NCBI RefSeq assembly: GCF_048403405.1
Contig: NZ_CP183129.1
Strand: one strand, 5' to 3'
Origin: Escherichia coli
Lineage (GTDB): Bacteria; Pseudomonadota; Gammaproteobacteria; Enterobacterales; Enterobacteriaceae
Length of the DNA stretch: 64,000 nt
The position numbers and the translations under genes were made by a program. How positions within the stretch are numbered: the first letter of the stretch is position 1; each line of letters opens with the position of its first letter. Under the pieces are notes generated by a model, which was given only the letters and a program-made list of their open reading frames with translations, was not told the DNA's origin and did not search any database. Shown one piece after another: positions 21,975 to 41,125 of the stretch.

Positions 21975-22024
21975 TGGCGAAAAGCCGGTTTCAGAAACAC
22001 AGCTAAAACAGAAGGATTTTCAGT

Positions 22025-23500: not shown

Positions 23501-23506
23501 CACGCC

Positions 23507-23920
23507 ATGATACCGGATCGGGAAAGAACCACAGGTTCTCTTTTTGAGCGTATGGAAGCCTCACCGGCCAGAAACTGGCAAGGAAGCAGTATTCATGCGC
23601 TCAGGCAGTCCATTCGCCAGAACCTGCGAAACATTCTTAATACCCGATCCGGTAGTTGCCGGGGTGCGCCTGAACTGGGCATTGATGAACCTGAAGGGGC
23701 TGAAAACTTCCGCGAATCAATGAGTCTGGCCATCGCGCAATGTATAGAACGCTATGAACCCCGGATCTCACACGCTGAAGTGCAGGCTGTGGTTTCATCC
23801 GCCGCCAGCCCGCTGGATATGACGTTTCGTATTACAGCCTGGGTGACATTTAACGAAACGCATGAGGTGCTTGAATTTGATATGGCACCGAATGGCAGCC
23901 AGCATTACCGGGTGGACTGA
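23507..23920 (+). CDS. tssE: T6SS baseplate protein TssE (gp25-like)
   Basis: 137 aa, GSLFERM... N-terminus typical of TssE. Confidence 0.85.
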   Translation: MIPDRERTTGSLFERMEASPARNWQGSSIHALRQSIRQNLRNILNTRSGSCRGAPELGIDEPEGAENFRESMSLAIAQCIERYEPRISHAEVQAVVSSAASPLDMTFRITAWVTFNETHEVLEFDMAPNGSQHYRVD

Positions 23921-23923
23921 CAA

Positions 23924-25774
23924 ATGGAATTTGAAGAACGCTATTTCCGGGAAGAACTCGATTACCTGCGCCAGCTTAGCAAGCTGCTGGCAACGGAAAA
24001 ACCCCATCTGGCCCGCTTCCTGGCCGAAAAAGATGCAGATCCGGATATTGAACGCCTGCTGGAAGGGGTGGCTTTTCTTACCGGCAATCTCCGCCAGAAA
24101 ATTGAGGATGAATTCCCAGAACTGACGCACGGGCTTATTAAGATGCTATGGCCTAATTACCTGCGTCCGGTTCCGGCAATGACCCTTATTGAATATACGC
24201 CGGATATGGATAAGTCTTCTGTACCGGTGTTAATCCCCCGTAATGAGCAGTTTACAACCAACGCCGGGGAAATCAGAGTTGATGAAGTGCTGCCCTCTGA
24301 TGCTAAAAAGGAGGAGCCTCCTCCCTGTACCTTCACCCTCTGCCGGGATATCTGGCTGCTGCCCGTTCGCCTGGAGCAGATTGAAAACCGCAGTACGACC
24401 CGTAATGGTGTTATCAACATCACCTTTTCGGTCGCACCGGGAACGGACTTCCGCACGCTGGATCTGAACAAACTTCGCTTCTGGCTCGGCAATGACGACA
24501 ACTATACCCGTGACCAGCTTTATTTATGGTTCTGTGAATACTTGCAGGGTGCCGACCTGACTGTGGGTGAACAGCATATTCGCCTGCCTGAGTTTATGCT
24601 GAAAGCTGTCGGTTTTGAGCCGCAGGATGCCATGCTGCCCTGGCCGAAAAACGTCCACAGCGGCTACCGGATCCTTCAGGAGTATTTCTGTTACCCCGAT
24701 GCGTTTCTCTTTTTTGATCTTTGTGGTTGTCCGGCTTTGCCTGACGGATTGCAGGCGGAATTCTTTACCCTGCAACTGCGTTTTTCGCGCCCTTTGCCCG
24801 TGGACATCCGGCTGCGCCGCGATTCCCTGCGCCTGTATTGCGCACCTGCCATTAATTTATTTATCCACCATGCAGAAGCCATCACGCTGGACAACCGGCG
24901 GGCAGACTATCCGCTGGTTCCCAGCCGCCATTACCCACAACATTACGATGTATTTTCCGTTAACAGTGTGGTGAGCCAGGTCCAGGATATGTTCAGGAAA
25001 AAAGATCTGGGGCGTCCTGTTTCGACGCAGGCCGCGCGCCAGTGGCCAGCCTTTGAAAGTTTCAGCCATCAGATGGAATACAGCCGGAAGCGGGAAGTGG
25101 TGTACTGGCATCACCGGACCAAAACATCCCTGTTCCATCGCGGCTTTGATCATACTCTTGCCTTTATACATGCTGATGGCAGTTATCCGTCAGATGAATC
25201 TCTGCTCAGTAATGAAGTGGTTTCGGTATCGCTGACCTGTACCAACCGTGAGCTTCCGTCACAAATTCGTTCCGGCGATATCACCGGCACAACCGGTAAA
25301 AATGCGGCTGTTGCTTCATTTCGCAACATTACCCGCCCGACGCAACCACTCTGGCCGGTCATTGATGGCAGCCTGCACTGGTCCCTACTCTCCGCCATGA
25401 ACCTGAATTATCTGTCATTACTGGATACGGACGCGCTGAAGCAGGTCATCGCCAACTTTGATCGCCACGCAATCCATCATCCGCAGACGGCGCGGCTGTC
25501 ACAACAAAAGCTGGATGCCATTGAGCGTCTGGAGACTCGCCCTGTCGACCGCCTGTTTACGGGCATTCCCGTCCGGGGGCTGGCCTCCACGCTGTATCTG
25601 CACCCGGAGCCGTTTGTCTGTGAAGGGGAAATGTATCTGCTCGGTACGGTGCTTTCGCATTTTCTGTCGCTGTACGCCAGCGTTAACTCATTCCACATGC
25701 TGACCGTTGTGAACACAGAAAGCCAGGAGACATGGAAATGGACGGAAAGAACCGGGCAGCATCCTCTTATCTGA
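23924..25774 (+). CDS. tssF: T6SS baseplate protein TssF
   Basis: 616 aa, MEFEERYFREELDYLRQL... typical TssF. Confidence 0.85.
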   Translation: MEFEERYFREELDYLRQLSKLLATEKPHLARFLAEKDADPDIERLLEGVAFLTGNLRQKIEDEFPELTHGLIKMLWPNYLRPVPAMTLIEYTPDMDKSSVPVLIPRNEQFTTNAGEIRVDEVLPSDAKKEEPPPCTFTLCRDIWLLPVRLEQIENRSTTRNGVINITFSVAPGTDFRTLDLNKLRFWLGNDDNYTRDQLYLWFCEYLQGADLTVGEQHIRLPEFMLKAVGFEPQDAMLPWPKNVHSGYRILQEYFCYPDAFLFFDLCGCPALPDGLQAEFFTLQLRFSRPLPVDIRLRRDSLRLYCAPAINLFIHHAEAITLDNRRADYPLVPSRHYPQHYDVFSVNSVVSQVQDMFRKKDLGRPVSTQAARQWPAFESFSHQMEYSRKREVVYWHHRTKTSLFHRGFDHTLAFIHADGSYPSDESLLSNEVVSVSLTCTNRELPSQIRSGDITGTTGKNAAVASFRNITRPTQPLWPVIDGSLHWSLLSAMNLNYLSLLDTDALKQVIANFDRHAIHHPQTARLSQQKLDAIERLETRPVDRLFTGIPVRGLASTLYLHPEPFVCEGEMYLLGTVLSHFLSLYASVNSFHMLTVVNTESQETWKWTERTGQHPLI

Positions 25775-26820
25775 GTCCGGGAAATCCCCCGGCAGATAAA
25801 GAGCAGAATGATCCGCTGGCACAGGTTTTTCATAACGCCTGCTCTTACAATTTTTTTGCGATGGCGGAGCTGTTGCACCGCCTGGCACAGGGTGAAAAGG
25901 GGACGCCGGAATTATCCCTGCGCGACGATCCGGCACAGGAAACCCTGCGTTTCAGCGCCGATGCCAGCCTTGCGTTTCCCCTGAGTGATATCAGTGCGCT
26001 GAAACGGGATACGTCAGGGGCATTCAGGATGACCACTACCTTTATGGGGTTACAGGGGAGCCAGTCGCCTCTCCCCGGTTATTACCTCGATCACCTGGCC
26101 TGGAAAGCGGTACATGAACAAAGTCCGGTAGGTGATTTTCTGGATATGTTCAGCCACCGCCTGACCCAGTTTGTCTGGCATATCTGGCGTAAGTACCGCT
26201 ATCACATCAGTTTTCGTAACGGCGGTGTGGATGCGTTCTCGCAGCGCATGTACTCCCTTGTTGGGCTGGGCCACCGCCAGCTTCGCGATAAGCTGGCGAT
26301 TAATCACAGCAAAATGCTGGCGTATTCCGGGATCCTGGCAAATCCGGGACGATCCCCGGAAATAATCTGCGGTCTGGTGTCCCACTGTTTTGATTTGTCA
26401 GACGTGACGCTGCAAAACTGGCAACGTCGCAAGGTGGATATTGAACCGGATCAGCAAAATAGCCTGGGGAGTTATTCACTTAAAAATGGCGAAAAACTGG
26501 CAGGAAGATCGGTACTGGGCAACTTTGTTCTGGGTACACGGGTGCCCGATCTCAGCGGAAAATTCCAGCTCAGTATTACCAGCCTGACCCGAAAACAGTT
26601 CCTCTCTTTTCTGCCGTCCGGCGAAAACTTCCTGCCACTGACGATGTTTGTGTCCTTCATCCTGCGCGATCAGCTTGCCTGGGACTTACATCTGGGGCTG
26701 GCGCCGGAGCAGGTGGGCGCAATGCGCCTGGGCGATAACAAAAGTGCGCTGCTGGGCTGGACCAGCTTCCTCGGCACACCGGAAGAACGACCTTCAGTCA
26801 CCATCAGGGTACGGTCGTAA
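25732..26820 (+). CDS. tssG: T6SS baseplate protein TssG (start uncertain)
   Basis: 362 aa ORF overlapping tssF end; YNFFAMAELLHRLA resembles the TssG N-terminal motif. Confidence 0.8.
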   Translation: MEMDGKNRAASSYLSPGNPPADKEQNDPLAQVFHNACSYNFFAMAELLHRLAQGEKGTPELSLRDDPAQETLRFSADASLAFPLSDISALKRDTSGAFRMTTTFMGLQGSQSPLPGYYLDHLAWKAVHEQSPVGDFLDMFSHRLTQFVWHIWRKYRYHISFRNGGVDAFSQRMYSLVGLGHRQLRDKLAINHSKMLAYSGILANPGRSPEIICGLVSHCFDLSDVTLQNWQRRKVDIEPDQQNSLGSYSLKNGEKLAGRSVLGNFVLGTRVPDLSGKFQLSITSLTRKQFLSFLPSGENFLPLTMFVSFILRDQLAWDLHLGLAPEQVGAMRLGDNKSALLGWTSFLGTPEERPSVTIRVRS

Positions 26821-26823
26821 ATT

Positions 26824-28125
26824 ATGATAATCACGGAGCAGAATATGCCGGAAGAGAAACTACAGACGCTTTCATTGCAGGTCATTAACGGCAGTGAGCT
26901 GGAAAGCGGGCGGGCGGCGCGCTGTCTGTTCACACAGCAGGGAAATGTCGGCCATGGCCCCGAATGCCACTGGTCGGTACAGGATCGTCAGCAGAGCATT
27001 CCGGCTCAGGCTTTTACCGTTATCCTGCACGATGGCACATTTTGTCTGCGCCCGCAGACGGCACAACTGTGGCTGAACCAAGCAAAAGTCACAGCAACAT
27101 CAGACCTGATACAGCTGCGCCAGGGCGATGAGATCCAGATAGGGCGTCTGATGGTGAGGGTTCATCTGAACCGGGGAGATATCCCCCATTACGATGAGGA
27201 AATGGCCACTCCCGAAACCATCGTCACCAATCGCGATATGCTCACGGATACCCTGCTGTCAACGGAGGGTGCGCCACACTATCCGGGAATGACTCACCGG
27301 CATCAGCTTGCAGACACCGTGGTAAACGGTTTTTCTGCCGATCCACTCCAGGCTCTTCAGTCCGAAAGCCTGATTACCACGGGCGATCCGCTTTCAGGCA
27401 TTGCGGCTGTCCGGCCATCGGCACCGCTGTCCGATCCGGCAAGTAATGGGGGGATCAATACGCCGTTTATGGATCTGCCGCCCATTTATGCCAGCCCCGG
27501 CGATCGTAATGATGACGTCTCTGTGGCAGAAATGGCGCAACGCCACCTTGCGGTCACCCCCTTACTGCGCGGTCTCGGCGGTTCGCTTACCGTGAGCAAT
27601 TCCGACGATGCGGATGATTTTCTGGAAGAGGCCGGACGAACGTTACAGGCCGCAATAAAAGGTCTGCTCGATTTGCAGCAACAGCGTAACAGCCTCTCAG
27701 ACAAACATTTGCGCCCGCTGGAAGATAACCCGCTGCGCCTGAACATGGATTACGCCACCGCGCTCGACGTGATGTTTGCCGAAGGTAAAAGTCCGGTACA
27801 TCTGGCGGCTCCCGCCGCTGTCAGTGAAAGCCTGCGCAATGTCCGCCACCACGAAGAAGCTAACCGGGCAGCGATTGTGGAGTCGCTTCGTGTCCTGCTG
27901 GATGCTTTCTCACCACAAAATCTGCTGCGCCGCTTTGTGCAGTACCGCCGCAGCCATGAACTGCGCCAGCCGCTGGATGATGCCGGAGCATGGCAAATGT
28001 ACAGCCATTATTACGAAGAACTGGCCTCCGATCGCCAGCAGGGGTTTGAGATGCTGTTTAACGAGGTCTACGCCCAGGTCTATGACCGGGTGCTTCGTGA
28101 AAAACAGCGGGAGCCGGAAGCATGA
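26824..28125 (+). CDS. tagH: FHA-domain T6SS accessory protein TagH
   Basis: 433 aa; N-terminal FHA-like region (LSLQVINGSELESGRAARCLF...GDEIQIGRLMV). Confidence 0.75.
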   Translation: MIITEQNMPEEKLQTLSLQVINGSELESGRAARCLFTQQGNVGHGPECHWSVQDRQQSIPAQAFTVILHDGTFCLRPQTAQLWLNQAKVTATSDLIQLRQGDEIQIGRLMVRVHLNRGDIPHYDEEMATPETIVTNRDMLTDTLLSTEGAPHYPGMTHRHQLADTVVNGFSADPLQALQSESLITTGDPLSGIAAVRPSAPLSDPASNGGINTPFMDLPPIYASPGDRNDDVSVAEMAQRHLAVTPLLRGLGGSLTVSNSDDADDFLEEAGRTLQAAIKGLLDLQQQRNSLSDKHLRPLEDNPLRLNMDYATALDVMFAEGKSPVHLAAPAAVSESLRNVRHHEEANRAAIVESLRVLLDAFSPQNLLRRFVQYRRSHELRQPLDDAGAWQMYSHYYEELASDRQQGFEMLFNEVYAQVYDRVLREKQREPEA

Positions 28126-28646
28126 ACAGGAAGGCGTTTCTGGCCTGCGTGCTGATGTGCGTCATATTAACCGGCTGCGAAACGGCGAAAAAAATCAGCG
28201 AGGTGATCAAAAACCCGGATATCCAGGTCGGGAGCCTGAAGGAGCAACCTTCGGAAATAACCGTCACCCTGCTGACCGAACCGGACACCAATACCAATGC
28301 GGAGGGTGAATCAGCCGCCGTGGATGTGCAACTGGTGTACCTGACTGACGACTCAAAATTGCTGGCAGCCGACTATGACCAGATAGCCAGTACGCCGCTA
28401 CCGGATGTGCTGGGTAAAAACTATATCGACCACCAGGATTTCAACCTGTTGCCGGACACCATCAAAACCCTGCCGCCGGTAAAGCTGGATGAGAAAACGC
28501 AGTTTATTGGTGTCGTGGCCTATTTCTCCGATGACCAGGCCACTGAATGGAAACAAATCGAGACGGTGGAAGGAACCGGCCACCATTACCGCCTGCTGGT
28601 GCATGTACGTCAAAGCAGCATCGAAATGAAAAAAGAGGATGAATAA
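28122..28646 (+). CDS. tssJ: T6SS outer-membrane lipoprotein TssJ
   Basis: 174 aa with lipobox (ILTGC); ATGA overlap with tagH stop. Confidence 0.85.
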   Translation: MNRKAFLACVLMCVILTGCETAKKISEVIKNPDIQVGSLKEQPSEITVTLLTEPDTNTNAEGESAAVDVQLVYLTDDSKLLAADYDQIASTPLPDVLGKNYIDHQDFNLLPDTIKTLPPVKLDEKTQFIGVVAYFSDDQATEWKQIETVEGTGHHYRLLVHVRQSSIEMKKEDE

Positions 28647-28648
28647 TT

Positions 28649-29980
28649 ATGGCAACCACCCGCAACAAGGTGATGTGGCAGGAAGGGATGCTGATGCGCC
28701 CACACCATTTCCAGCAACAGCAGCGTTACAACGACTACCTGGATAACCAGCGTTTCCGGGCCATGAATGATTTATCCTGGGGATTTACCGAACTCACCCT
28801 CAACAATGAACTGCTGGCGCAGGGTAAGATCATGATTGACAGCGCGTCAGGCACACTGCCCGACGGCACCGTCTTTTCTATCCCCGACCAGGACGCACTG
28901 CCCGATCCGCTGCACCCGCAACATTTTCCGGACGAAAGAAGCCGCAATATTTACCTCGCTCTGCCGGTCGCCAGTGATGTGAGAAATGAAATCAGCGACG
29001 GGCGGCGAATCGGGCGTTACCGGCTGAATTATGCCGATGTCCGGGATCTGCATTCAGAAGAAGGTGACGCGCGAACACTGACGCTGGGTCAACTGACGCC
29101 GCGCATTATGAGCGGTGCAGAAGATATGAGCGCCTATATTACGCTCCCGCTTTGCCGTATCAGCGATCGCCATGCCGACGGCTCCCTGACGCTGGATGAC
29201 GATTTTATCCCCTCCTGCCAGAATATTCAGGTCAGTAAGAAACTGCGTGTTTATCTCAAAGAGGTACAGGGGGCCATTGGCGGACGGGCAAGCGATCTGG
29301 CAAACCGCATTGGCTCTCCGGCGCAGAGCGGCATCGCGGATGTGGCGGAATTTATGATGTTGCAGTTACTTAACCGTAACCAGACCCGGTTTACCCATCG
29401 CGCTCGTCGATCCCAGCTCCACCCGGAAGATTTCTACCTTGATCTTGCCGGGTTGCTGGGTGAACTGATGACCTTTACCGAGCCGTCGCGCCTGCCCTGC
29501 CCGCTTGATGTGTATGATCATCATGACCTGACCAAAACATTTAAAACGCTGTTACCGGAAGTCAAACGGGCGCTGCATACCGTACTGTCGCCAAGAGCCG
29601 TTAATCTGCCGCTGCATCTGCGTGACGGTATCTGGCAGGCCGATATCCATGACACAGAACTGCTGCAATCTGCCACCTTTGTGCTGGCCGTGGCGGCAAA
29701 CATGCCGGTCGATCAGATCCAGCGCCAGTTTATCCAGCAGTCGAAAATTTCCTCGCCGGAAAAAATCCGCAATATGGTCAGTGTGCAGATACCCGGCATT
29801 CCATTGCGTGCCCTGATGGTGGCTCCCCGCCAGCTTCCTTACCATTCCGGGTTCAGCTATTTCGAACTCGACAAGAGCGGCCAGGCCTGGACAGAAATGG
29901 CTGCCGCCGGGGCCGTTGCACTGCATGTATCCGGCAGTTTCCCGGATCTGAACATGCAACTGTGGGCGATAAGAGGGTAA
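28649..29980 (+). CDS. tssK: T6SS baseplate protein TssK
   Basis: 443 aa, MATTRNKVMWQEGMLMRPHHFQQQ... typical TssK. Confidence 0.9.
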   Translation: MATTRNKVMWQEGMLMRPHHFQQQQRYNDYLDNQRFRAMNDLSWGFTELTLNNELLAQGKIMIDSASGTLPDGTVFSIPDQDALPDPLHPQHFPDERSRNIYLALPVASDVRNEISDGRRIGRYRLNYADVRDLHSEEGDARTLTLGQLTPRIMSGAEDMSAYITLPLCRISDRHADGSLTLDDDFIPSCQNIQVSKKLRVYLKEVQGAIGGRASDLANRIGSPAQSGIADVAEFMMLQLLNRNQTRFTHRARRSQLHPEDFYLDLAGLLGELMTFTEPSRLPCPLDVYDHHDLTKTFKTLLPEVKRALHTVLSPRAVNLPLHLRDGIWQADIHDTELLQSATFVLAVAANMPVDQIQRQFIQQSKISSPEKIRNMVSVQIPGIPLRALMVAPRQLPYHSGFSYFELDKSGQAWTEMAAAGAVALHVSGSFPDLNMQLWAIRG

Positions 29981-29984
29981 GACG

Positions 29985-30746
29985 ATGGATGAGGGGTCAC
30001 TGTCTCTGCCACCATTTACCGGACACCACGAAAAAAGCCAGCGCGACTATCATCTCGCGCTTCGTGGCAACAGCCTGAATCCGATGATCGACGCAGCCAC
30101 GCCGCTCCTCGGTATGGTGATGCGCCTTTCAACCATGAACAGTCAGACGATGCCGGAGCATCTTTTTGCTCAGGTGGTGACGGATGTTCAGGCCGTGGAG
30201 CAACTGCTTCAGGAGCAGGGCTACGAACCGGGCGTGATTATCTCGTTTCGCTACATCCTCTGCACGTTTATTGATGAAGCGGCGCTCGGTAACGGCTGGT
30301 CGAACAAGAACGAGTGGATCAAGCAGTCATTGCTGGTCCATTTCCACAACGAAGCCTGGGGTGGAGAGAAAGTTTTCATCCTGCTGGAGCGCCTGATCCG
30401 TGAACCCAAACGTTACCAGGATCTGCTGGAATTTCTCTGGCTCTGTTTTTCTCTGGGATTTCGCGGGCGCTACAAAGTGGCAGCACAGGATCAGGGGGAA
30501 TTTGAGCAGATCTACCGCCGCCTGTACCACGTCCTGCATAAACTACGCGGCGATGCCCCTTTCCCGCTGTTACACCAGGACAAAAAAACCCAGGGCGGGC
30601 GTTATCAGCTCATCAGTCGCCTGACCATTAAACATATTTTTTGTGGTGGCGTTGTCGTGCTGGCGTTGTTTTACCTGTTCTATCTGTTGCGGTTGGACAG
30701 CCAGACGCAGGACATCCTGCACCAGCTAAACAAATTACTTCGATAA
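29985..30746 (+). CDS. tssL: T6SS membrane protein TssL (DotU/IcmH family), no peptidoglycan-binding extension
   Basis: 253 aa with single C-terminal TM helix (GGVVVLALFYLFYLL); ends right after the TM. Confidence 0.85.
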   Translation: MDEGSLSLPPFTGHHEKSQRDYHLALRGNSLNPMIDAATPLLGMVMRLSTMNSQTMPEHLFAQVVTDVQAVEQLLQEQGYEPGVIISFRYILCTFIDEAALGNGWSNKNEWIKQSLLVHFHNEAWGGEKVFILLERLIREPKRYQDLLEFLWLCFSLGFRGRYKVAAQDQGEFEQIYRRLYHVLHKLRGDAPFPLLHQDKKTQGGRYQLISRLTIKHIFCGGVVVLALFYLFYLLRLDSQTQDILHQLNKLLR

Positions 30747-30754
30747 GGACGTTT

Positions 30755-33556
30755 ATGATCCAGATTGATCTTCCCACGCTGGTAAAACGGCTTAACCTGT
30801 TCTCCCGCCAGGCGCTGGAGATGGCCGCCTCTGAATGTATGAGCCAGCAGGCAGCGGAAATTACCGTCAGCCATGTGCTTATTCAGATGCTCGCCATGCC
30901 ACGCAGCGACCTGCGGGTTATTACCCGCCAGGGCGATATTGGCATGGAAGAGTTGCGCCAGGCGCTGACGGTGGAGAACTACACAACTGCCCGTTCTGCG
31001 GACAGCTACCCGGCATTTTCCCCGATGCTGGTTGAGTGGCTGAAAGAGGGCTGGCTGCTGGCGTCGGCTGAGATGCAGCACAGCGAATTGCGTGGCGGCG
31101 TGTTGCTGCTGGCCCTGCTGCATTCGCCGCTGCGTTATATACCGCCTGCTGCCGCCCGGTTGTTGACCGGCATTAACCGTGACCGTCTGCAACAGGACTT
31201 TGTACAGTGGACACAGGAGTCGGCGGAATCAGTCGTGCCGGATGCAGACGGTAAAGTCGCAGGCACACTGACGGACGCTGCTGACACCCTGCTTGCCCGC
31301 TACGCCAAAAACATGACCGCAGACGCCCGTAACGGCAGGCTTGACCCGGTACTGTGCCGCGACCACGAAATCGACCTGATGATCGACATTCTCTGCCGCC
31401 GCCGCAAGAACAACCCGGTGGTGGTGGGCGAAGCAGGCGTGGGTAAAAGTGCCTTAATCGAAGGGCTGGCGCTGCGCATCGTGGCAGGCCAGGTGCCGGA
31501 CAAACTGAAAAACACCGATATCATGACCCTTGACCTAGGCGCATTGCAGGCCGGGGCGTCGGTGAAGGGCGAATTCGAAAAACGCTTCAAGGGGCTGATG
31601 GCGGAGGTCATTTCCTCTCCGGTGCCGGTCATTCTGTTTATTGACGAAGCACATACCCTGATTGGCGCGGGCAACCAGCAGGGCGGGCTGGATATCTCCA
31701 ACCTGCTCAAACCGGCGCTGGCGCGCGGCGAACTGAAAACCATCGCCGCCACCACCTGGAGCGAATACAAAAAATACTTCGAGAAAGATGCCGCCCTGTC
31801 GCGCCGCTTCCAGCTGGTGAAGGTCAGCGAACCCAACGCCGCCGAAGCCACCATTATTCTGCGTGGTCTGTCGGCGGTCTATGAACAGTCTCACGGCGTG
31901 CTGATTGATGATGACGCCTTGCAGGCCGCAGCAACGCTGAGCGAACGTTATCTCTCCGGGCGTCAGTTGCCGGACAAAGCCATTGATGTGCTGGATACCG
32001 CCTGCGCCCGCGTCGCCATTAACCTTTCCTCGCCGCCGAAGCAAATCTCGGCGCTGACCACTCTGAGCCACCAGCAGGAGGCGGAAATTCGCCAGCTTGA
32101 GCGCGAGCTTCGCATCGGGCTGCGTACCAACACCTCACGGATGACCGAGGTGCTGGTGCAGTACGATGAAACGCTGACGGCGCTGGATGAACTGGAAGCG
32201 GCCTGGCATCAGCAGCAGGCGCTGGTCCGGGAGATTATCGCGCTGCGCCAGCAGTTGCTGGGCGTGGCAGAAGACGATGCGGCGTCGTTGCCGGACGCAG
32301 ATGCCGCGGAGGATACGCCGCCAGAGTCAGAGTCAGAGTCAGAGTCAGAGTCAGAGTCAGAGTCAGAGTCAGAACAGGATAATACCGGTGCCGTACCGGC
32401 TGATGAGGCCGACAGAGAACAGCCGGAAGAGACCGCTGAAACAGTTTCCCCGGTACAGCGGCTGGCCCAGCTCACTGCCGAACTGGACGCCCTGCATAAC
32501 GACCGGTTGCTGGTCTCCCCGCACGTCGATAAAAAACAGATTGCGGCGGTGATTGCCGAATGGACCGGCGTGCCGCTCAACCGCCTGTCGCAGAATGAAA
32601 TGTCGGTCATCACCGACCTGCCGAAATTGCTGGGCGACACCATCAAAGGCCAAGACCTGGCGATTGCCAGCCTGCATAAGCATCTACTGACCGCACGCGC
32701 CGACCTGCGTCTTCCGGGACGCCCGCTCGGTGCGTTCCTGCTGGCTGGCCCCAGCGGTGTGGGTAAAACCGAAACCGTCCTGCAACTGGCAGAGCTGCTC
32801 TACGGCGGTCGCCAGTACCTGACCACCATCAATATGTCCGAATTCCAGGAGAAACACACCGTCTCGCGGCTGATTGGTTCGCCTCCGGGCTACGTTGGCT
32901 ACGGTGAAGGCGGCGTACTGACCGAAGCGATTCGCCAGAAACCCTACTCGGTAGTACTGCTCGATGAAGTGGAAAAAGCGCACCCGGATGTGCTCAACCT
33001 GTTCTACCAGTCGTTCGATAAGGGCGAAATGGCAGACGGTGAAGGCCGCCTGATTGACTGCAAAAATATCGTCTTCTTCCTGACGTCCAACCTCGGCTAC
33101 CAGGTAATAGTCGAGCACGCCGATGACCCGGAAACCATGCAGGAAGAACTGTATCCGGTGCTGGCCGACTTCTTCAAACCTGCCCTGCTGGCGCGTATGG
33201 AAGTGGTGCCGTATCTGCCGCTGTCGAAAGAGACGCTCGCCACCATTATCGCCGGAAAACTGGCCCGTCTGGATAACGTGCTGCGCAGTCGCTTTGGTGC
33301 AGAAGTGGTCATTGAACCGGAAGTGACGGACGAAATCATGAGCCGCGTCACCCGCGCGGAAAACGGCGCGAGGATGCTGGAATCGGTCATCGATGGCGAC
33401 ATGCTACCGCCGCTCTCGCTGCTGCTGTTGCAGAAAATGGCGGCTAACACGGCGATTGCCCGGATTCGGTTGTCGGCGGTGGACGACGCATTTACGGCAG
33501 ACGTGGAAGATGCTCAGAACGACGAGTCCGTCACAAAGGATGAAACGGTTTTATGA
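30755..33556 (+). CDS. clpV: T6SS AAA+ ATPase ClpV (TssH)
   Basis: ORF 30641..33556; start at ATG 30755 (MIQIDLPTLVKRL); two Walker A motifs (GEAGVGKSA, GPSGVGKTE). Confidence 0.9.
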   Translation: MIQIDLPTLVKRLNLFSRQALEMAASECMSQQAAEITVSHVLIQMLAMPRSDLRVITRQGDIGMEELRQALTVENYTTARSADSYPAFSPMLVEWLKEGWLLASAEMQHSELRGGVLLLALLHSPLRYIPPAAARLLTGINRDRLQQDFVQWTQESAESVVPDADGKVAGTLTDAADTLLARYAKNMTADARNGRLDPVLCRDHEIDLMIDILCRRRKNNPVVVGEAGVGKSALIEGLALRIVAGQVPDKLKNTDIMTLDLGALQAGASVKGEFEKRFKGLMAEVISSPVPVILFIDEAHTLIGAGNQQGGLDISNLLKPALARGELKTIAATTWSEYKKYFEKDAALSRRFQLVKVSEPNAAEATIILRGLSAVYEQSHGVLIDDDALQAAATLSERYLSGRQLPDKAIDVLDTACARVAINLSSPPKQISALTTLSHQQEAEIRQLERELRIGLRTNTSRMTEVLVQYDETLTALDELEAAWHQQQALVREIIALRQQLLGVAEDDAASLPDADAAEDTPPESESESESESESESESEQDNTGAVPADEADREQPEETAETVSPVQRLAQLTAELDALHNDRLLVSPHVDKKQIAAVIAEWTGVPLNRLSQNEMSVITDLPKLLGDTIKGQDLAIASLHKHLLTARADLRLPGRPLGAFLLAGPSGVGKTETVLQLAELLYGGRQYLTTINMSEFQEKHTVSRLIGSPPGYVGYGEGGVLTEAIRQKPYSVVLLDEVEKAHPDVLNLFYQSFDKGEMADGEGRLIDCKNIVFFLTSNLGYQVIVEHADDPETMQEELYPVLADFFKPALLARMEVVPYLPLSKETLATIIAGKLARLDNVLRSRFGAEVVIEPEVTDEIMSRVTRAENGARMLESVIDGDMLPPLSLLLLQKMAANTAIARIRLSAVDDAFTADVEDAQNDESVTKDETVL
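32322..32369 (+). repeat. Hexanucleotide microsatellite (CAGAGT)x8 inside clpV, encoding (ES)n
   Basis: Eight perfect tandem CAGAGT units; in frame (CCA GAG TCA GAG ...) giving PESESESESESESESE. Confidence 0.95.
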
Positions 33557-34296
33557 GCAGGTTGCGCGTTTTCCGGCAGACAGGATGGTTTATCGCGGGC
33601 CTGATGACGGGCTTACCCGCCACTGCCGCGCCCGCAGAAACATCGTCAATGGCCGGTGTGGCGGTCGCCGTCGCCACCACGACCCCGCCGGATGCGACAG
33701 CCACGTCACAGGCCATGCAGTCCTGTCGGCGGGAGTCCGCGGCGCTGGAGCGGCTTGACTGCTATGACCGCCTGCTGGCACCGCTGTCCCCGTCAGGGTT
33801 TGACGGGGCGCTGGTCAAAGCCGGTTTTGTGGGCGAGGCCTGGACCCGCGCCACAGAGCAGGAAAAACGTCGCGAGGGCAACACCACAGAACTGCTGGTG
33901 ACGCAGGTGCCGGGGGAGCGCCCGACGGTGGTGATAACCACCCCGGCTATCGGCCATGTTCCGCCGCGCCCGGTGCTGATGTTCAGTTGCGTGGACAATA
34001 TCACCCGGATGCAGGTGGCGCTGATGCACCCTCTGGATGTCCATGATATCGCCGTCACTCTGAATGCCGACAGCCGGGCATTGCGTAGCCACTGGTTTGT
34101 GCGCGAGAACGGCACCCTGCTGGAGTCCAGCCGGGGGCTGTCCGGGATTGATGAAATTAAGCAACTGTTCGGCGCAAAAACGCTGACAGTGGATACCGGC
34201 GCAGATAACGCCGCAGGAAAGCTGACCTTTAACATTGACGGGCTGGCAAGGGCGATTGCCCCCCTGCGCGTTGCCTGCCACTGGGCGGGAGAATAA
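33553..34296 (+). CDS. Secreted T6SS-associated protein, VasI-like by position (name from recollection of the Vibrio cholerae cluster)
   Basis: 247 aa with signal peptide; ATGA overlap with clpV stop; sits between clpV and tssA where vasI lies in V. cholerae. Confidence 0.55.
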   Translation: MSRLRVFRQTGWFIAGLMTGLPATAAPAETSSMAGVAVAVATTTPPDATATSQAMQSCRRESAALERLDCYDRLLAPLSPSGFDGALVKAGFVGEAWTRATEQEKRREGNTTELLVTQVPGERPTVVITTPAIGHVPPRPVLMFSCVDNITRMQVALMHPLDVHDIAVTLNADSRALRSHWFVRENGTLLESSRGLSGIDEIKQLFGAKTLTVDTGADNAAGKLTFNIDGLARAIAPLRVACHWAGE

Positions 34297-34300
34297 AAAT

Positions 34301-35713
34301 ATGGCAATGGACTTACGCGATCCGAATGTCTGGATAACGCACCTGCTGGAAAACCTGCCGGAAGAAAAACTGGCATCGGCGCTGAAAGATGACAACCCGG
34401 ACTGGGAGTATATCGACGGCGAAATCGTCAAACTGGGATCTCTGGCCCACAGTCAACTGGATATCCCGGAACTCCAGCGCCGGGGGCTGGTCATTCTGGC
34501 TTCGGAGAGTAAGGACTTTCGTCTGCTGGCGCATCTGCTGAGAACCCTGCAACACGCCGGTGATCCTCATCTCGCATTGCGCCTGCTGGCGCTGTATGTG
34601 GAGCATTACTGGTCGGTGGCTGCGCCGCAGAATATGGCACATAAAAAACGCTTTGCCAGCCAGGTCATTAAACGCTTCGAAACAGGTATTGAAGGCTTTT
34701 CACAGAACGCCGCCACAGCGCAGCGCGACGCGCTGTCAGGGGAACTGGCGAAACTGGCGCAGTGCTGGCAGTCACATAACGCCCCGGAACTGGCACTGGC
34801 TACCGATGATCTTTTTGCCCTGTACCAGCGTGCGTTTAATCGTGCGGCACCGGCTCCTGCCCCCACTCCGGCGGCCTCCGATAGTTCACGACAGACCACC
34901 GCCACGTCTGAAAGCGGCGTGACGCAACCCAGTGCTCCGGCTCCCCAAATCGCCATCGACAGTCACGACGACAAAGCCTGGCGCGACACGCTGTTAAAAG
35001 TGGCGGCTATTTTATGTGAACGCCAGCCGGACTCGCCGCAGGGCTATCGCCTGCGCCGCCATGCCCTGTGGCAATCCATCACCAGTACACCCCAGGCGGA
35101 AAGCGATGGACGTACCCCATTGGCTGCGGTCTCTGCCGATATGGTGGCGGATTACCAGTCCCGGCTTGCCAGCGCGGATATGGCGCTGTGGCAGCAGGTT
35201 GAGAAAAGCGTATTGCTGGCTCCTTACTGGCTGGACGGTCACTGTCTTTCTGCACAGACGGCACTGCGTCTGGGTTACAAACAGGTGGCAGACACCATCC
35301 GCGATGAGGTCATCCGCTTCCTTGAGCGTCTGCCCCAGCTTACCGGGCTGCTGTTTAATGACCGCACACCGTTTCTCAGTGAGCAGACGAAACAATGGCT
35401 GGCAGCTTCGCCCGACGGCAAAGTTGCACCGGTTGCGCAAATCGGTGAGGAATCGCAGGCAGCCAGAGCCTGTTTTGCTGGGCAGGGTCTGGAGGCGGCG
35501 CTGCGATATCTGGACATGCTACCCGAAGGCGATCCCCGCAATCAGTTTCACCGCCAGTACCTTGCCGCACAGTTGACGGAGGAGGCGGGGCTGATACAGC
35601 TTGCGCAGCAACAGTACCGGATGTTGTTGATGATAGGGAGTCAGATGATGGTGTCTGACTGGGAGCCATCATTACTTACGCAGCTTGAACAAAAATTCAC
35701 GGCAGAACAATAA
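34301..35713 (+). CDS. tssA: T6SS protein TssA (ImpA_N family)
   Basis: ORF 34235..35713; start at ATG 34301 (MAMDLRDPNVWITHLLENL); immediately upstream of tssM. Confidence 0.8.
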   Translation: MAMDLRDPNVWITHLLENLPEEKLASALKDDNPDWEYIDGEIVKLGSLAHSQLDIPELQRRGLVILASESKDFRLLAHLLRTLQHAGDPHLALRLLALYVEHYWSVAAPQNMAHKKRFASQVIKRFETGIEGFSQNAATAQRDALSGELAKLAQCWQSHNAPELALATDDLFALYQRAFNRAAPAPAPTPAASDSSRQTTATSESGVTQPSAPAPQIAIDSHDDKAWRDTLLKVAAILCERQPDSPQGYRLRRHALWQSITSTPQAESDGRTPLAAVSADMVADYQSRLASADMALWQQVEKSVLLAPYWLDGHCLSAQTALRLGYKQVADTIRDEVIRFLERLPQLTGLLFNDRTPFLSEQTKQWLAASPDGKVAPVAQIGEESQAARACFAGQGLEAALRYLDMLPEGDPRNQFHRQYLAAQLTEEAGLIQLAQQQYRMLLMIGSQMMVSDWEPSLLTQLEQKFTAEQ

Positions 35714-35731
35714 AAGAGAACAGGAGTTTTT

Positions 35732-38700
35732 GTGTTCAGATTACCAACACCCCGACTACTCAGCGGACTCAAATCAGCCCTACGCCCGGCGATGCCCCGG
35801 TTTAAAGTCTCCGCTTTCTGGCTGCTGATACTGGCGTGGATTTTTCTGCTGGTATGGATCTGGTGGAAAGGCCCGACGTGGACGCTGTATGAAGAACAGT
35901 GGCTCAAACCACTGGCGAACCGCTGGCTGGCAACGGCGGCATGGGGGATTATCGCCCTAGTGTGGCTTACCGTCCGGATGATGAAGCGCCTGCAACAGCT
36001 TGAAAAAATGCAAAAGCAGCAGCGCGAGGAGGCCATTGATCCGCTCAGTGTGGAGCTGAACGCCCAGCAGCGTTACCTTGACCGCTGGCTGCTGCGCCTG
36101 CAACGCCATCTCGACAACCGCCGTTTCCTGTGGCAGTTGCCGTGGTATATGGTCATCGGCCCGGCGGGCAGTGGCAAAACGACACTGCTGCGCGAGGGTT
36201 TTCCGTCCGACATTATTTATGCCCCGGAGGGCGCACGCGGCGCAGAACAACGCCTGTACCTCACGCCCCATGTCGGTAAACAGGCGGTGATCTTTGATAT
36301 CGACGGCACACTCTGCGCTCCCGCTGATGCGGATATCCTGCATCGCCGTCTGTGGGAACATGCCCTCGGCTGGCTGAAAGAAAAGCGCGCGCGCCAGCCG
36401 CTGAACGGGATTATTCTGACACTCGATTTACCCGATCTGCTTACCGCAGACAAACGCCGCCGCGAACATCTGTTACAGACGCTGCGCAGCCGCTTGCAGG
36501 ATATACGCCAGCATCTTCACTGCCAGTTACCGGTTTACGTGGTACTCACCCGGCTTGATTTATTGCAGGGTTTTGCCGCCCTGTTCCAGTCACTGAACAG
36601 ACAGGATCGCGATGCAATTCTAGGGGTCACGTTCACCCGCCGCGCCCATGAAAATGATGACTGGCGAACAGAGTTGAATGCTTTCTGGCAGACATGGGTG
36701 GATCGAATGAACCTAGCGTTGCCGGATCTGATGGTCGCTCAGACTCACACCCGCGCGTCTTTATTTAGTTTTTCCCGCCAGATGCAGGGAAGCCGTGAAC
36801 CACTGGTGTCACTGCTTGAGGGTCTGCTTGACGGCGAAAATATGAACGTGATGCTGCGTGGCGTCTATCTCACCTCTTCGCTTCAGCGCGGACAGATGGA
36901 TGATATTTTCACCCAGTCTGCCGCCCGCCAATACCGGCTGGGCAATAACCCACTGGCGTCCTGGCCTCTGGTGGACACCGCACCCTATTTCACCCGTAGC
37001 CTGTTCCCGCAGGCATTACTCGCAGAGCCTAATCTGGCAACAGAAAGCCGCACCTGGCTGATGCGTTCCCGTCGCCGCCTGACGGTTTTCTCTACCACAG
37101 GAGGCGTGGCGGCACTGCTGCTCATCACCGGCTGGCATCACTATTACAACGGTAACTATCAGTCCGGCATCACCGTGCTTAAGCAGGCAAAAGCCTTTAT
37201 GGATGTACCGCCTCCGCTGGGGGAAGATGATTACGGCAACCTGCAACTGCCGCTGCTGAACCCGGTACGCGATGCCACGCTGGCCTATGGCGACTGGGGC
37301 GACCGCAGCCGTCTGGCCGATATGGGACTGTACCAGGGACGGCGTATCGGGCCTTATGTGGAACAAACCTATCTGCAACTGCTGGAGCAGCGTTACCTGC
37401 CTTCGCTGTTTAACGGGCTGGTCAAAGCGATGAACGCCGCGCCGCCGGAGAGTGAGGAAAAACTCGCCGTGCTGCGTGTGATGCGAATGCTGGAGGACAA
37501 AAGCGGACGCAATAATGAGGTGGTGAAGCAGTATATGGCAAAACGCTGGAGCGAAAAATTCCACGGCCAGCGCGATATCCAGGCACAACTGATGTCCCAT
37601 CTTGACTACGCGCTGGCTCATACTGACTGGCATGCAGAGCGTCAGGCGGGCGACGGTGATGCCATCAGCCGCTGGACGCCATATGACAAGCCTGTTGCGA
37701 CAGCACAGAAAGAACTGAGCAAACTGCCTGTCTACCAGCGAGTTTACCAGAGCCTGAAAACGCGGGCGCTGGGCGTTCTTCCTGCCGACCTCAATCTGCG
37801 TGACCAGGTAGGGCCAACTTTTGACCAGGTATTTACATCTGCCGATGATAACAAACTGGTTGTTCCACAGTTTCTTACCCGTTACGGCCTGCAAAGCTAT
37901 TTTGTAAAACAGCGCGATGAACTGGTTGAACTGACGGCGATGGATTCCTGGGTACTCAACCTCACCCGCAGCGTGAAATACAGTGACGCCGACCGCGCGG
38001 AAATCCAGCGCCAGTTGACCGAGCAGTATATCAGCGACTACACCGCCACCTGGCGGGCCGGGATGGACAATCTGAATATCCGCAATTTTGAGTCCATCGG
38101 ACAACTGACCGGGGCGCTGGAGCAGGTTATCAGCGGCGACCAGCCTTTGCAGCGGGCGCTGACCGTGCTGCGTGACAACACACAGCCAGGCGTCTTTTCT
38201 GAAAAACTCTCTGCCAAAGAGCGGGATGAGACCCTGGCAGAGCCGGATTACCAGTTACTCACCCGCCTCGGGCATGAATTCGCCCCGGAAAACAGTACCC
38301 TGACAGTACAGAAAGACAAAGAAAGCACGATGCAGGCCGTATACCAGCAGCTCACCGAGTTACACCGCTACCTGCTGGCAATCCAGAACGCGCCTGTACC
38401 AGGGAAATCGGCGCTGAAAGCCGTGCAGTTAAGGCTTGATCAGAACAGCAGCGATCCAATATTCGCCACCCGCCAGATGGCAAAAACACTGCCTGCTCCG
38501 CTCAACCGCTGGGTAGGCAGGCTGGCTGACCAGGCCTGGCATGTGGTGATGGTGGAAGCCGTTCACTATATGGAAGTGGACTGGCGCGACAGCGTGGTGA
38601 AACCGTTTAACGAGCAACTGGCAAATAACTATCCGTTTAATCCACATTCTGCACAGGATGCCTCACTGGATGCCTTCGAACGATTCTTTAAACCAGATGG

Positions 38701-39256: not shown

Positions 39257-39266
39257 GGAGGCAGGG

Positions 39267-40619: not shown

Positions 40620-40642
40620 TTATTTAATTAAAGGAGATTATC

Positions 40643-41125
40643 ATGGCAAATATGAGTTATTTATCTTTGAGTGGAGAGACACAAGGGCTGATTTCAGCAG
40701 GTTGCTCAACGCTTGATTCTGTCGGAAACAAAGCACAGCCAGAACATAAAGATCAGATCATGGTTTATGCGTTAATGCATTCCATCTCAAGAAGTCAAAA
40801 TGTCAATCATCATGAATTAATTATCACCAAACCGGTTGATAAATCCTCACCATTGCTGGCAAAAGCACTTAGTGACAATGAAAAAATGGTAACATGTGAA
40901 TTTATACTCTACCGAACCAGTAAAGCGGGTATTTACCAGCCTTATTATAAAATAAACCTGTCAAAAGCCCGAATATCAAGTATTGATTTTGTCACACCGC
41001 ATGCTGTCCTGGAAAAAGAACTGGAGCCACAGGAGAGAATTGCCTTTATTTATGAAGATATTTCCTGGGAGCATACGTTAGCCGGTACGAATGCAATGAG
41101 TAAATGGCAGGATCGTGTACAGTAA
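40643..41125 (+). CDS. Second Hcp-family protein (Hcp2)
   Basis: 160 aa; Hcp-like profile (ELIITKPVDKSSPLLAKALSDNEKM...ISWEH); AAGGAG RBS; last T6SS-type gene of the plus-strand operon. Confidence 0.75.
   Translation: MANMSYLSLSGETQGLISAGCSTLDSVGNKAQPEHKDQIMVYALMHSISRSQNVNHHELIITKPVDKSSPLLAKALSDNEKMVTCEFILYRTSKAGIYQPYYKINLSKARISSIDFVTPHAVLEKELEPQERIAFIYEDISWEHTLAGTNAMSKWQDRVQ

What the first reader, a model, noticed from the sequence alone, without database searches (positions are those of the whole stretch)
32322..32369. In-frame (CAGAGT)x8 microsatellite inside clpV encoding an acidic (ES)n tract
Eight perfect hexanucleotide repeats sit in the middle of clpV and translate to PESESESESESESESE within an acidic, Pro/Asp/Glu-rich insertion between the two AAA+ modules. 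Hexanucleotide repeats change copy number by slipped-strand mispairing without breaking the frame, so this is a potential length-variable linker in an essential T6SS ATPase.
Basis: seen in the sequence. Interest (0 to 1): 0.5.

Follow-up and report, generated by a model that had tools for sequence, protein, structure and literature searches.

The report
Known variable repeat in E. coli clpV
The eight-copy six-base repeat is real and its copy number varies from 1 to about 40 among E. coli strains, but it is already a standard strain-typing marker lying in a floppy, dispensable-looking loop of the type VI secretion ATPase ClpV, so it is a correct but ordinary finding.

Summary
A perfect (CAGAGT)x8.7 array lies at 32322-32373, in frame in tssH/clpV (30755-33556), and encodes (Glu-Ser)8, residues 524-539. 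The window is the aspV-linked T6SS island of E. coli, and all 17 T6SS ORFs are intact.

The predicted length variability is also confirmed. In complete E. coli genomes the array ranges from 1 to 40 units, always in steps of 6 bases. At least 7 alleles (8-23 units) occur among 32 genomes whose flanks are 100% identical to the window.

The locus is already known. Published primers of the generic E. coli MLVA scheme (GECM-10) match the window exactly on either side of the array, and the amplicon arithmetic and allele ranges fit marker CVN016. A 2026 paper also reports a 12-bp (Ser-Glu-Ser-Glu) deletion at this site in O157:H7.

Structurally, the tract lies in a 60-residue acidic loop (net charge -23) predicted to be disordered. 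The loop sits inside the coiled-coil middle domain, at a position that varies in length in all ClpVs.

The best explanation is a slippage-driven, nearly neutral VNTR in a permissive loop. It cannot act as an on/off switch. A role in tuning ClpV activity is untested and unlikely.

The parts
32322..32373 (+). (CAGAGT)x8.7 perfect hexanucleotide tandem array (VNTR)
   Evidence: TRF score 104 with 100% matches; sequence read directly; the only perfect hexamer array with 3 or more copies in the window.
32324..32371 (+). (GAG TCA)x8 codons = (Glu-Ser)8, ClpV residues 524-539
   Evidence: Translation of the ORF. A single codon pair is used throughout, as expected for recent slippage.
32264..32443 (+). 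Acidic low-complexity insert, ClpV residues 504-563 (24 D/E, 1 K/R, net charge -23), predicted to be disordered
   Evidence: Composition. AlphaFold2 pLDDT is below 50 for residues 511-557 while the whole protein averages 89.4. Occupancy is only 5-57% in an alignment of 121 diverse ClpVs. Identity among Escherichia is 70-87%, against 96-98% for the rest of the protein.
30755..33556 (+). tssH/clpV CDS (933 aa), type VI secretion sheath-recycling AAA+ ATPase
   Evidence: TIGR03345 1118.5 bits, cutoff 884.95. Pfam AAA, AAA_lid_9, AAA_2 and ClpB_D2-small. RefSeq annotation in colinear strain 4621. The N-domain matches the V. cholerae ClpV N-domain 3zri, E = 2.5e-33.
32039..32260 (+). M-domain coiled-coil helices before the loop (residues 429-453 and 461-502)
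   Evidence: DSSP on the AlphaFold2 model. These residues align to T. thermophilus ClpB about 400-469, which is M-domain.
32450..32497 (+). M-domain helix after the loop (residues 566-581), leading into the second ATPase module
   Evidence: AlphaFold2 model. The alignment to ClpB resumes at query 571 = ClpB 497.
32031..32049 (+). Exact binding site of a published GECM-10 MLVA primer (CGCCGCCGAAGCAAATCTC)
   Evidence: Primer from Table 1 of PMC8143711; exact match.
32535..32556 (-). Exact binding site of the paired MLVA primer (GCAATCACCGCCGCAATCTGTT). The amplicon 32031-32556 is 526 bp = 478 + 6x8
17649..41125 (.). Surrounding T6SS cluster (vgrG, hcp, tssB, tssC, tssE, tssF, tssG, tagH, tssJ, tssK, tssL, tssH, vasI, tssA, tssM, vasL, hcp). 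All ORFs are intact in the window. The island lies next to tRNA-Asp (aspV)
   Evidence: Annotation of colinear strain 4621; zero offset over 17151-42200; ORF integrity checked in the window.

Best explanation
This is a coding microsatellite (VNTR) that gains and loses 6-base units by slipped-strand mispairing during replication.

Because the unit is two codons, each event adds or removes one Glu-Ser dipeptide and can never shift the reading frame. The array therefore changes protein length and cannot switch the gene on or off.

The array sits in a disordered, strongly acidic surface loop within the coiled-coil middle domain of ClpV. That position tolerates insertions of very different length and sequence throughout the ClpV family. 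The variation is therefore most likely neutral or nearly neutral for sheath recycling.

Short arrays (1-2 units) are stable. Once an array is long and pure (8 or more units) it becomes hypermutable, which is why the locus works as a high-resolution typing marker (generic E. coli MLVA, most likely locus CVN016).

Shown here: the array, its frame, its polymorphism, its identity with the MLVA amplicon, and its position in a predicted disordered and poorly conserved loop. Inferred: slippage as the mechanism, and neutrality.
For: - **Polymorphism.** In an even sample down the ranking of 2,736 matching genomes (n = 55), the counts were 1 unit x14, 2 x14, 3 x4, 4 x3, 5 x2 and 10-32 units x14.
- **Fast change.** Among 32 genomes whose flanks are 100.0% identical to the window there are 7 alleles (8, 14, 15, 16, 18, 19, 23). 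In a group with 99.7% identical flanks (n = 25) there are 13 alleles from 15 to 40. All 57 length differences are multiples of 6.
- **Direct counts** in fetched loci: 2, 3, 4, 8, 12, 16, 21 and 40 units.
- **Purity.** The arrays are pure apart from occasional synonymous CAGAAT units, and expansions occur on at least two different flanking haplotypes. This points to recurrent, recent slippage.
- **Threshold behaviour.** Groups with 1-2 units show no variation; for example, 8 genomes at 97.1% identity all give 490 bp.
- **Frame.** The ORF stays open at 8 units (2802 nt) and at 40 units (2994 nt).
- **Permissive site.** pLDDT is below 50 for residues 511-557 in an otherwise confident model. In 122 diverse ClpVs the segment between conserved anchors has a median of 27 aa and a range of 9-80, and many carry unrelated low-complexity inserts. 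The linker evolves about 4-8 times faster than the rest of ClpV within Escherichia.
- **Independence from system function.** A 40-unit allele sits in a fully intact cluster, and a 21-unit in-frame allele sits in a cluster lacking tssB-tssG with broken tssK and tssA.
- **Known marker.** MLVA primers match exactly and (526-478)/6 = 8. PMC3877011 reports a 475-bp no-repeat CVN016 product. PMC3407997 gives ST38 isolates CVN016 = 10-20. PMC3519732 gives CVN016 a range of 1-15 with high diversity.
- **Short alleles work.** EHEC clpV, which has a short array, complements a clpV deletion.
Against: - No experiment compares ClpV function at different repeat numbers, so neutrality is inferred and not shown.
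- In ClpB the corresponding part of the middle domain regulates the motor, so a length effect on ClpV activity is conceivable.
- Long arrays (30-40 units) persist within whole lineages with intact clusters. This shows they are tolerated, but it does not exclude a benefit.
- Copy numbers for most genomes were deduced from the lengths of BLAST matches. Only 13 arrays were read directly.
- The CVN016 versus CVN017 name is not fully resolved, because the original description (Lobersli et al. 2012) was not available.
Confidence: 0.85

Rival explanations
1. Tuning knob. The length of the acidic (ES)n loop modulates ClpV activity, and selection favours different lengths in different lineages. For example, loop length could change how the middle domain docks on the first ATPase ring, or how the hexamer approaches the contracted sheath.
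For: - The loop lies in the middle domain. In ClpB/Hsp104 this domain regulates ATPase and threading activity (established knowledge; PMC11975955 also notes it as the most flexible ClpV region).
- Long alleles are kept in lineages with intact clusters.
- The Escherichia insert is the longest of 122 representative ClpVs.
Against: - Expansions also occur in a clearly dead cluster.
- The arrays are pure single-codon repeats, typical of mutation pressure and not of selection for an amino-acid pattern.
- Many alleles coexist among genomes with identical flanks.
- The site is poorly conserved and variable in length across the family.
- No functional data exist.
Confidence: 0.08
2. Degeneration. Repeat changes in clpV are part of the decay of a T6SS that is no longer needed, as proposed for EHEC. 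Expansions or contractions would mark, or contribute to, loss of function.
For: - PMC12981562 lists the 12-bp Ser-Glu-Ser-Glu deletion among 'degenerative' mutations of the EHEC cluster.
- Strain 08_3323 combines a 21-unit allele with a wrecked cluster.
- An IS1203 element splits the gene right next to the array in one strain.
Against: - All 17 T6SS ORFs are intact in the window and in the 40-unit strain elppa9.
- The change can never break the frame.
- EHEC clpV with the shortened array still complements a clpV deletion.
- The same paper rates the clpV change as minor compared with the tssM change.
Confidence: 0.05
3. Phase-variable contingency locus. Slippage in the repeat switches clpV, and hence T6SS activity, on and off.
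For: Only a general analogy with simple-sequence contingency loci in Haemophilus and Neisseria (own knowledge).
Against: The unit is 6 bases. All 112 sampled length differences are multiples of 3, and the ORF stays open from 2 to 40 units. The array is 1.5 kb inside the coding sequence, not in a promoter.
Confidence: 0.01
4. Assembly or sequencing artefact. The apparent copy-number differences come from mis-assembled repeats.
For: Long-read assemblies can miscount simple repeats.
Against: - The differences are exact multiples of 6 across many independent complete genomes.
- Arrays of 50-250 bp are easily spanned by single reads.
- Fragment-length PCR typing found the same range years earlier.
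Confidence: 0.01

Closest known systems
Generic E. coli MLVA (GECM-10; Lobersli et al. 2012) locus CVN016 (labelled CVN017 in one primer table)
   Same: It is the same locus. The published primers match the window exactly on either side of the array, and the amplicon is 526 bp = 478-bp offset + 8x6. The unit is 6 bp. The marker is absent from about half of strains. The reported allele ranges (1-20) and the high values in ST38 agree with what the genomes show.
   Different: The MLVA papers I could read treat it as an anonymous marker and do not discuss ClpV or the protein consequences. Genomes reveal alleles of up to 40 units, beyond the ranges in those papers. The marker name is ambiguous because PMC8143711 prints these primers under 'CVN017' while its own offset formula fits CVN016.
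12-bp Ser531-Glu534 deletion in EHEC O157:H7 ClpV relative to O55:H7 (PMC12981562, 2026)
   Same: Same gene, same (ES)n tract and the same kind of event, a two-unit contraction. I see 3- and 4-unit alleles among O157:H7 genomes.
   Different: That paper presents it as a single degenerative mutation on one evolutionary path. It does not present it as one state of a species-wide hypervariable VNTR.
Middle (M) domain of ClpB/Hsp104, distal part of helix L2 and motif 2
   Same: A coiled-coil inserted after the first ATPase module. ClpV helices 429-453 and 461-502 align to the ClpB M-domain, and the loop replaces ClpB residues about 470-496.
   Different: In ClpV this stretch is replaced by a non-conserved, disordered acidic loop. 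ClpV does not work with DnaK (established knowledge; Schlieker et al. 2005, cited). No regulatory role of this loop is known.
Ser-Asp dipeptide repeat (R/SD) regions of staphylococcal Clf/Sdr surface proteins
   Same: A dipeptide repeat of serine plus an acidic residue, encoded by short tandem DNA repeats, variable in length between strains and used for typing (own knowledge).
   Different: Those are long extracellular stalks with a demonstrated spacer function and glycosylation. This one is a cytoplasmic loop of an ATPase with no demonstrated function.
Phase-variable simple-sequence contingency loci (e.g. tetranucleotide repeats in Haemophilus and Neisseria)
   Same: Slippage-prone tandem repeats inside genes involved in interactions with hosts or competitors.
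   Different: Their unit lengths are not multiples of three, so they toggle expression. This one cannot.

Membership tests
TssH/ClpV (type VI secretion AAA+ ATPase) | Whole-protein score above the curated cutoff of the equivalog model TIGR03345 | tested here: met
   1118.5 bits against a cutoff of 884.95. ClpB, ClpA, ClpK and ClpG models all score below their cutoffs.
TssH/ClpV (type VI secretion AAA+ ATPase) | Two AAA+ modules with Walker A lysines, plus a ClpV-type N-domain | tested here: met
   Pfam AAA (224-335), AAA_lid_9, AAA_2 (657-818) and ClpB_D2-small. G228/G230/K231 and G668/G670/K671 are invariant. The N-domain matches the V. cholerae ClpV N-domain 3zri, E = 2.5e-33.
TssH/ClpV (type VI secretion AAA+ ATPase) | Encoded within a T6SS core gene cluster | tested here: met
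   The gene lies between tssL and vasI/tssA in a complete cluster. All ORFs are intact in the window.
TssH/ClpV (type VI secretion AAA+ ATPase) | Disassembles contracted TssB/TssC sheaths | not testable with these tools
   This needs biochemistry or live imaging. The EHEC orthologue has clpV-dependent phenotypes (PMC12981562).
VNTR / MLVA marker CVN016 of the GECM-10 scheme | Published primer pair anneals on either side of the array | tested here: met
   Both primers match with 0 mismatches at 32031-32049 and 32535-32556. The primers are printed under the label 'CVN017' in PMC8143711.
VNTR / MLVA marker CVN016 of the GECM-10 scheme | Amplicon size = 478-bp offset + 6n | tested here: met
   526 = 478 + 48, so n = 8, equal to the counted units. 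PMC3877011 gives a no-repeat product of 475 bp for CVN016. The alternative offset of 202 would give 54 units.
VNTR / MLVA marker CVN016 of the GECM-10 scheme | Copy number polymorphic among isolates, with null (absent) alleles | tested here: met
   1-40 units. The locus is found in 2,736 of 5,426 genomes. This agrees with CVN016 (1-15 repeats, diverse, with nulls) and not with CVN017 (9 repeats or null) in PMC3519732.
VNTR / MLVA marker CVN016 of the GECM-10 scheme | Locus definition in the original description (Lobersli et al. 2012) | not testable with these tools
   The paper is not held. The choice between the names CVN016 and CVN017 therefore rests on secondary papers.
Phase-variable contingency locus | Slippage shifts the reading frame or alters promoter spacing so that expression toggles | tested here: not met
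   The unit is 6 bases. All observed length differences are multiples of 3, and ORFs are intact from 2 to 40 units.
ClpB/Hsp104-type middle domain | Coiled-coil inserted at the end of the first AAA+ module | tested here: met
   Helices 429-453, 461-502 and 566-581 in the model, aligned to T. thermophilus ClpB 400-469 and 497 onward.
ClpB/Hsp104-type middle domain | Conserved motif 2 (DnaK-binding, repressing contact) | tested here: inconclusive
   ClpB 470-496 has no aligned counterpart and is replaced by the non-conserved loop. Helix-by-helix correspondence was not established by structural superposition.

The most novel reading that the evidence does not exclude
The (ES)n loop is a mutational 'rheostat'. 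Its length tunes how the ClpV middle domain gates the motor, or how the strongly acidic hexamer surface engages contracted sheaths. Hypermutable arrays would then let lineages such as the ST38-like and 30-40-unit groups rapidly adjust T6SS firing and recycling rates.
Probability: 0.07. Interest if true: 0.55.

Novelty: already known. Interest (0 to 1): 0.2.

Why it matters
Biologically it matters little. The repeat is a textbook in-frame coding microsatellite in a permissive loop, and its variability has been used for E. coli typing since 2012.

Three practical points are worth keeping.

1. The anonymous MLVA marker can now be stated to lie in the ClpV middle-domain loop of the aspV-linked T6SS. 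This explains its 'null' alleles, which occur in strains lacking the island or carrying divergent or disrupted clpV.
2. Alleles with about 14-16 or more units are named 'AAA family ATPase' instead of TssH by the RefSeq pipeline, because the family-model alignment splits at the expanded loop. Annotation-based T6SS surveys may therefore score these genomes as lacking ClpV.
3. The 12-bp 'degenerative deletion' reported for EHEC ClpV is best read as ordinary VNTR drift.

If loop length did affect ClpV activity, it would be a rare example of a mutational tuning knob in a secretion motor. Nothing here supports that.

Tried and rejected
- **Original marker description.** I looked for Lobersli et al. 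2012, but it is not held. The CVN016/CVN017 naming therefore rests on three secondary papers.
- **Other MLVA loci.** I tested all ten GECM-10 primer pairs against the window, allowing up to 3 mismatches. Only one pair matches.
- **Literature searches.** Searches for ClpV with MLVA, VNTR or microsatellite terms found no functional study of this repeat. The only direct mention is the 12-bp deletion in PMC12981562.
- **Close-homologue search.** The search of the 90%-clustered database returned only E. coli and E. albertii in its top 120. It established the ancestral single-ES state but said nothing about other genera, so I ran the 50%-cluster search instead.
- **Right-half-only matches.** I suspected genomes matching only the right half of the amplicon might have a deletion ending at the repeat. 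The one I fetched (CE0007a) simply has an intact tssH with a more divergent 5' half.
- **Annotation transfer.** Comparing the window with strain 4621 base by base failed because of upstream indels. K-mer anchoring showed zero offset only over 17151-42200.
- **Overlapping ORFs.** The alternative-frame and antisense ORFs over the repeat (QS and DS tracts) were considered and dismissed as by-products of the repeat.
- **Phosphorylation idea.** I considered ES-tract phosphorylation linked to the FHA protein TagH. It was dropped because no kinase gene is annotated in the cluster and FHA domains recognise phosphothreonine (own knowledge).
- **Not run.** I did not run a fold search, because sequence matches to ClpB structures already place the domains.
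Full report
**1. The observation**

The sequence at 32322-32369 is eight perfect copies of CAGAGT, followed by a partial ninth copy (CAGA). Tandem Repeats Finder reports 32322-32373, period 6, 8.7 copies, 100% matches and score 104. The next best array in the 64 kb scores 57. It is the only perfect hexamer array with three or more copies in the window. The chance expectation is about 3e-21.

In the reading frame of the long + strand ORF the units are (GAG TCA)x8 at 32324-32371, giving ...EDTPP-(ES)8-EQDNTG....

**2. The gene and its setting**

The ORF scores 1118.5 bits on the TssH/ClpV equivalog model TIGR03345 (cutoff 884.95). It falls below the cutoffs of the ClpB, ClpA, ClpK and ClpG models. 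Pfam finds both AAA+ modules, the AAA lid and the ClpB D2-small domain.

Megablast places the window in E. coli. The 701-bp segment around the repeat is found in 2,736 of 5,426 complete genomes. RefSeq annotation of strain 4621 is colinear with the window at zero offset over 17151-42200. It gives tssH at 30755-33556 (933 aa), inside a complete cluster: vgrG, hcp, tssB, tssC, tssE, tssF, tssG, tagH, tssJ, tssK, tssL, tssH, vasI, tssA, tssM, vasL and hcp, lying next to tRNA-Asp. All 17 ORFs are open in the window.

This cluster is homologous to the main T6SS cluster of EHEC O157:H7 studied in PMC12981562. Two O157:H7 genomes match the amplicon at 92.8-96.9% identity with tssH annotated.

**3. 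Is the copy number variable?**

Yes, strongly.

I used the exact MLVA amplicon (32031-32556, 526 bp) as the query and listed 60 genomes at even steps down the whole ranking. Of these, 55 covered both ends. Their lengths correspond to 1 unit (14 genomes), 2 (14), 3 (4), 4 (3), 5 (2) and 10-32 units (14). Four shorter variants carry 3-bp-multiple deletions elsewhere in the loop.

Among the 32 best hits whose flanks are 100.0% identical to the window there are seven alleles: 8, 14, 15, 16, 18, 19 and 23 units. In a group with 99.7% identical flanks (25 genomes) there are thirteen alleles, from 15 to 40 units. Every one of these 57 length differences is a multiple of 6.

I read 13 arrays directly:
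- 2 units (SCU-104)
- 3 and 4 units (two O157:H7 strains)
- 8 units (the window, strain 4621 and Z1323CEC0019)
- 12 units (ETEC1701 and OkiPb01707)
- 16 units (EC5502)
- 21 units (08_3323)
- 40 units (elppa9)

The arrays are pure. The only variant unit is CAGAAT, a synonymous GAA codon. Expansions sit on at least two different flanking haplotypes, so they arose more than once.

E. albertii and many E. coli have a single ES ('PPESEQ' or 'PSESEQ') inside a loop of constant 46-residue length. That is the likely ancestral state. Groups with 1-2 units show no length variation, whereas groups with 8 or more units show many alleles. This is the threshold behaviour expected of slippage.

The coding sequence remains open at 2802 nt (8 units) and at 2994 nt (40 units).

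**4. The repeat is already a typing marker**

Table 1 of PMC8143711 prints the primers of the ten-locus generic E. coli MLVA scheme (GECM-10; Lindstedt 2007 and Lobersli 2012). Tested against the window, exactly one pair matches, with no mismatch. The sites are 32031-32049 and 32535-32556, on either side of the array.

The pair is labelled CVN017 in that table. However, the same paper's size formulas are CVN016 = (product-478)/6 and CVN017 = (product-202)/6. The window's 526-bp amplicon gives exactly 8 with the first formula and 54 with the second.

Three independent papers point to CVN016:
- PMC3877011 reports a 475-bp CVN016 product with no repeats.
- PMC3519732 describes CVN016 as highly diverse (1-15 repeats, with null alleles), and CVN017 as 9 repeats or null.
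- PMC3407997 lists ST38 isolates with CVN016 = 10, 15, 17 and 20, while most ST131 isolates score 0.

The window's 100%-identity group includes a genome named 'strain ST38' with 15 units.

The locus is therefore most likely CVN016, and one table has swapped the names. I could not read the original description.

Separately, PMC12981562 (2026) reports that EHEC EDL933 ClpV lacks Ser531-Glu532-Ser533-Glu534 through a 12-bp deletion relative to its O55:H7 ancestor. That is a two-unit contraction of this array. The same study shows that EHEC clpV complements a clpV deletion, so a short allele is functional.

**5. Where the tract sits in the protein**

phmmer against solved structures aligns ClpV to T. 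thermophilus ClpB (1qvr) in two blocks: residues 179-501 to ClpB 151-469, and 571-893 to ClpB 497-825 (numbering from 30752, one higher than the annotated protein). About 69 ClpV residues therefore replace about 27 residues of the ClpB middle domain.

An AlphaFold2 model was built on 120 sequences (mean pLDDT 89.4, pTM 0.74). It shows helices 429-453 and 461-502, then a segment with pLDDT below 50 (511-557), then helix 566-581 leading into the second ATPase module.

The 60-residue insert (504-563) has 24 acidic residues, one basic residue and only three hydrophobic residues.

The tract is therefore a disordered acidic loop within the coiled-coil middle domain. In ClpB this domain lies on the outside of the first ATPase ring (established knowledge). 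The tract is not a plain tether between the two rings.

**6. The site is permissive across the family**

In an alignment with 121 representatives of ClpV clusters at 50% identity, occupancy of query positions 501-570 is 5-57%, while the flanking helices are at 95-100%. The segment between conserved anchors has a median of 27 residues and a range of 9-80. The window's is the longest. Several other lineages carry unrelated Ala/Pro/Asp/Glu-rich inserts of 50-78 residues.

Within Escherichia the loop, not counting the extra repeat units, is 70-87% identical, against 96-98% for the rest of the protein. Most distant homologues match the query in two stretches that break at this loop.

**7. Does array length track function of the system?**

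No, as far as I could test.

Strain elppa9 (40 units) has every T6SS gene annotated intact. Strain 08_3323 (21 units) has lost tssB-tssG and part of tagH, has a frameshifted tssK and a stop in tssA, and still has an open clpV. The window (8 units) has an intact cluster.

Expansions thus occur with and without a working system. This is what mutation pressure in a permissive site predicts.

**8. Explanation and rivals**

The best-supported account is a slippage-driven, in-frame VNTR whose variation is neutral or nearly so (confidence 0.85).
- A tuning-knob role for loop length cannot be excluded, because the middle domain regulates the related ClpB motor. There is no positive evidence for it (0.08).
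- The 'degeneration' reading of PMC12981562 is weak for clpV. The change cannot break the frame, occurs in intact clusters, and leaves a complementing gene (0.05).
- An on/off phase switch is ruled out by the 6-base unit.
- An assembly artefact is ruled out by the exact multiples of 6 and by independent PCR fragment sizing in the MLVA literature.

**9. Verdict**

Novelty is 'already known' and interest is low (0.2).

The useful by-products are:
- the mapping of an anonymous typing marker to a specific protein loop;
- the reinterpretation of the EHEC 12-bp deletion as VNTR drift;
- the finding that long alleles lose the TssH name in RefSeq. For the 40-unit allele the TIGR03345 alignment splits into two stretches, although the total score (1123 bits) stays above the cutoff.

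Noticed in passing
window 32168-32199 (inside clpV, about 120 bases upstream of the repeat); locus L015 1501-1534: The ygcE-queE CRISPR array of E. coli strain MS 21-1 contains a 32-nt spacer identical to this stretch of clpV. The protospacer is on the - strand with a GCC flank, which is not a canonical type I-E PAM. That genome shows no other match to the clpV query, so it appears to lack this gene. A chromosomal T6SS gene as a CRISPR spacer source is unusual.
   Followed up: partly
tssH alleles in loci L001, L009 and L011, and many rows: RefSeq (PGAP) names alleles with about 14-16 or more repeat units 'AAA family ATPase' instead of TssH. For the 40-unit allele the TIGR03345 alignment splits into two stretches at the expanded loop, although the total score (1123 bits) is still above the cutoff of 885. 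Annotation-based T6SS surveys could miss ClpV in these genomes.
   Followed up: yes
locus L008 (strain Z1323CEC0019), equivalent to window about 32369/32370: An IS1203 (IS3-family) element is inserted immediately after the eighth CAGAGT unit and splits clpV into two pseudogene fragments.
   Followed up: partly
locus L017 (strain 08_3323) compared with locus L016 (strain elppa9): 08_3323 has a decayed T6SS island (tssB-tssG and part of tagH deleted, tssK frameshifted, tssA with an internal stop) but keeps an open clpV with 21 units. elppa9 has 40 units in a fully intact island.
   Followed up: partly
literature: PMC8143711 Table 1 against its own Methods: The primer pair that brackets this repeat is printed as CVN017. 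The paper's offset formulas, and the data of three other papers, fit CVN016. Either the primer labels or the formulas appear to be swapped in that paper.
   Followed up: partly
literature: PMC12981562; searched for in window 1-64000: The EHEC island has a second in-frame hexanucleotide repeat, (GGTGAA)6 encoding Gly-Glu, in the immunity gene Z0269. No (GGTGAA)n array of 2 or more copies exists in this window.
   Followed up: yes
window 41169-42083: This ORF downstream of the second hcp is open in the window (304 codons) and in strain elppa9. It is annotated as a pseudogene with an internal stop in the otherwise near-identical strain 4621.
   Followed up: partly
window 21750-21974: A conserved 74-codon ORF of unknown function sits between tssB and tssC. 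It is annotated as a hypothetical protein in both strain 4621 and elppa9.
   Followed up: no
window 1-17150: Upstream of the T6SS core, the window differs from strain 4621 by indels and rearrangements. In strain 4621 the corresponding region holds ISEc1, IS66/ISCro1, Rhs fragments and a truncated flhA. K-mer anchoring finds shifted or absent matches here.
   Followed up: no
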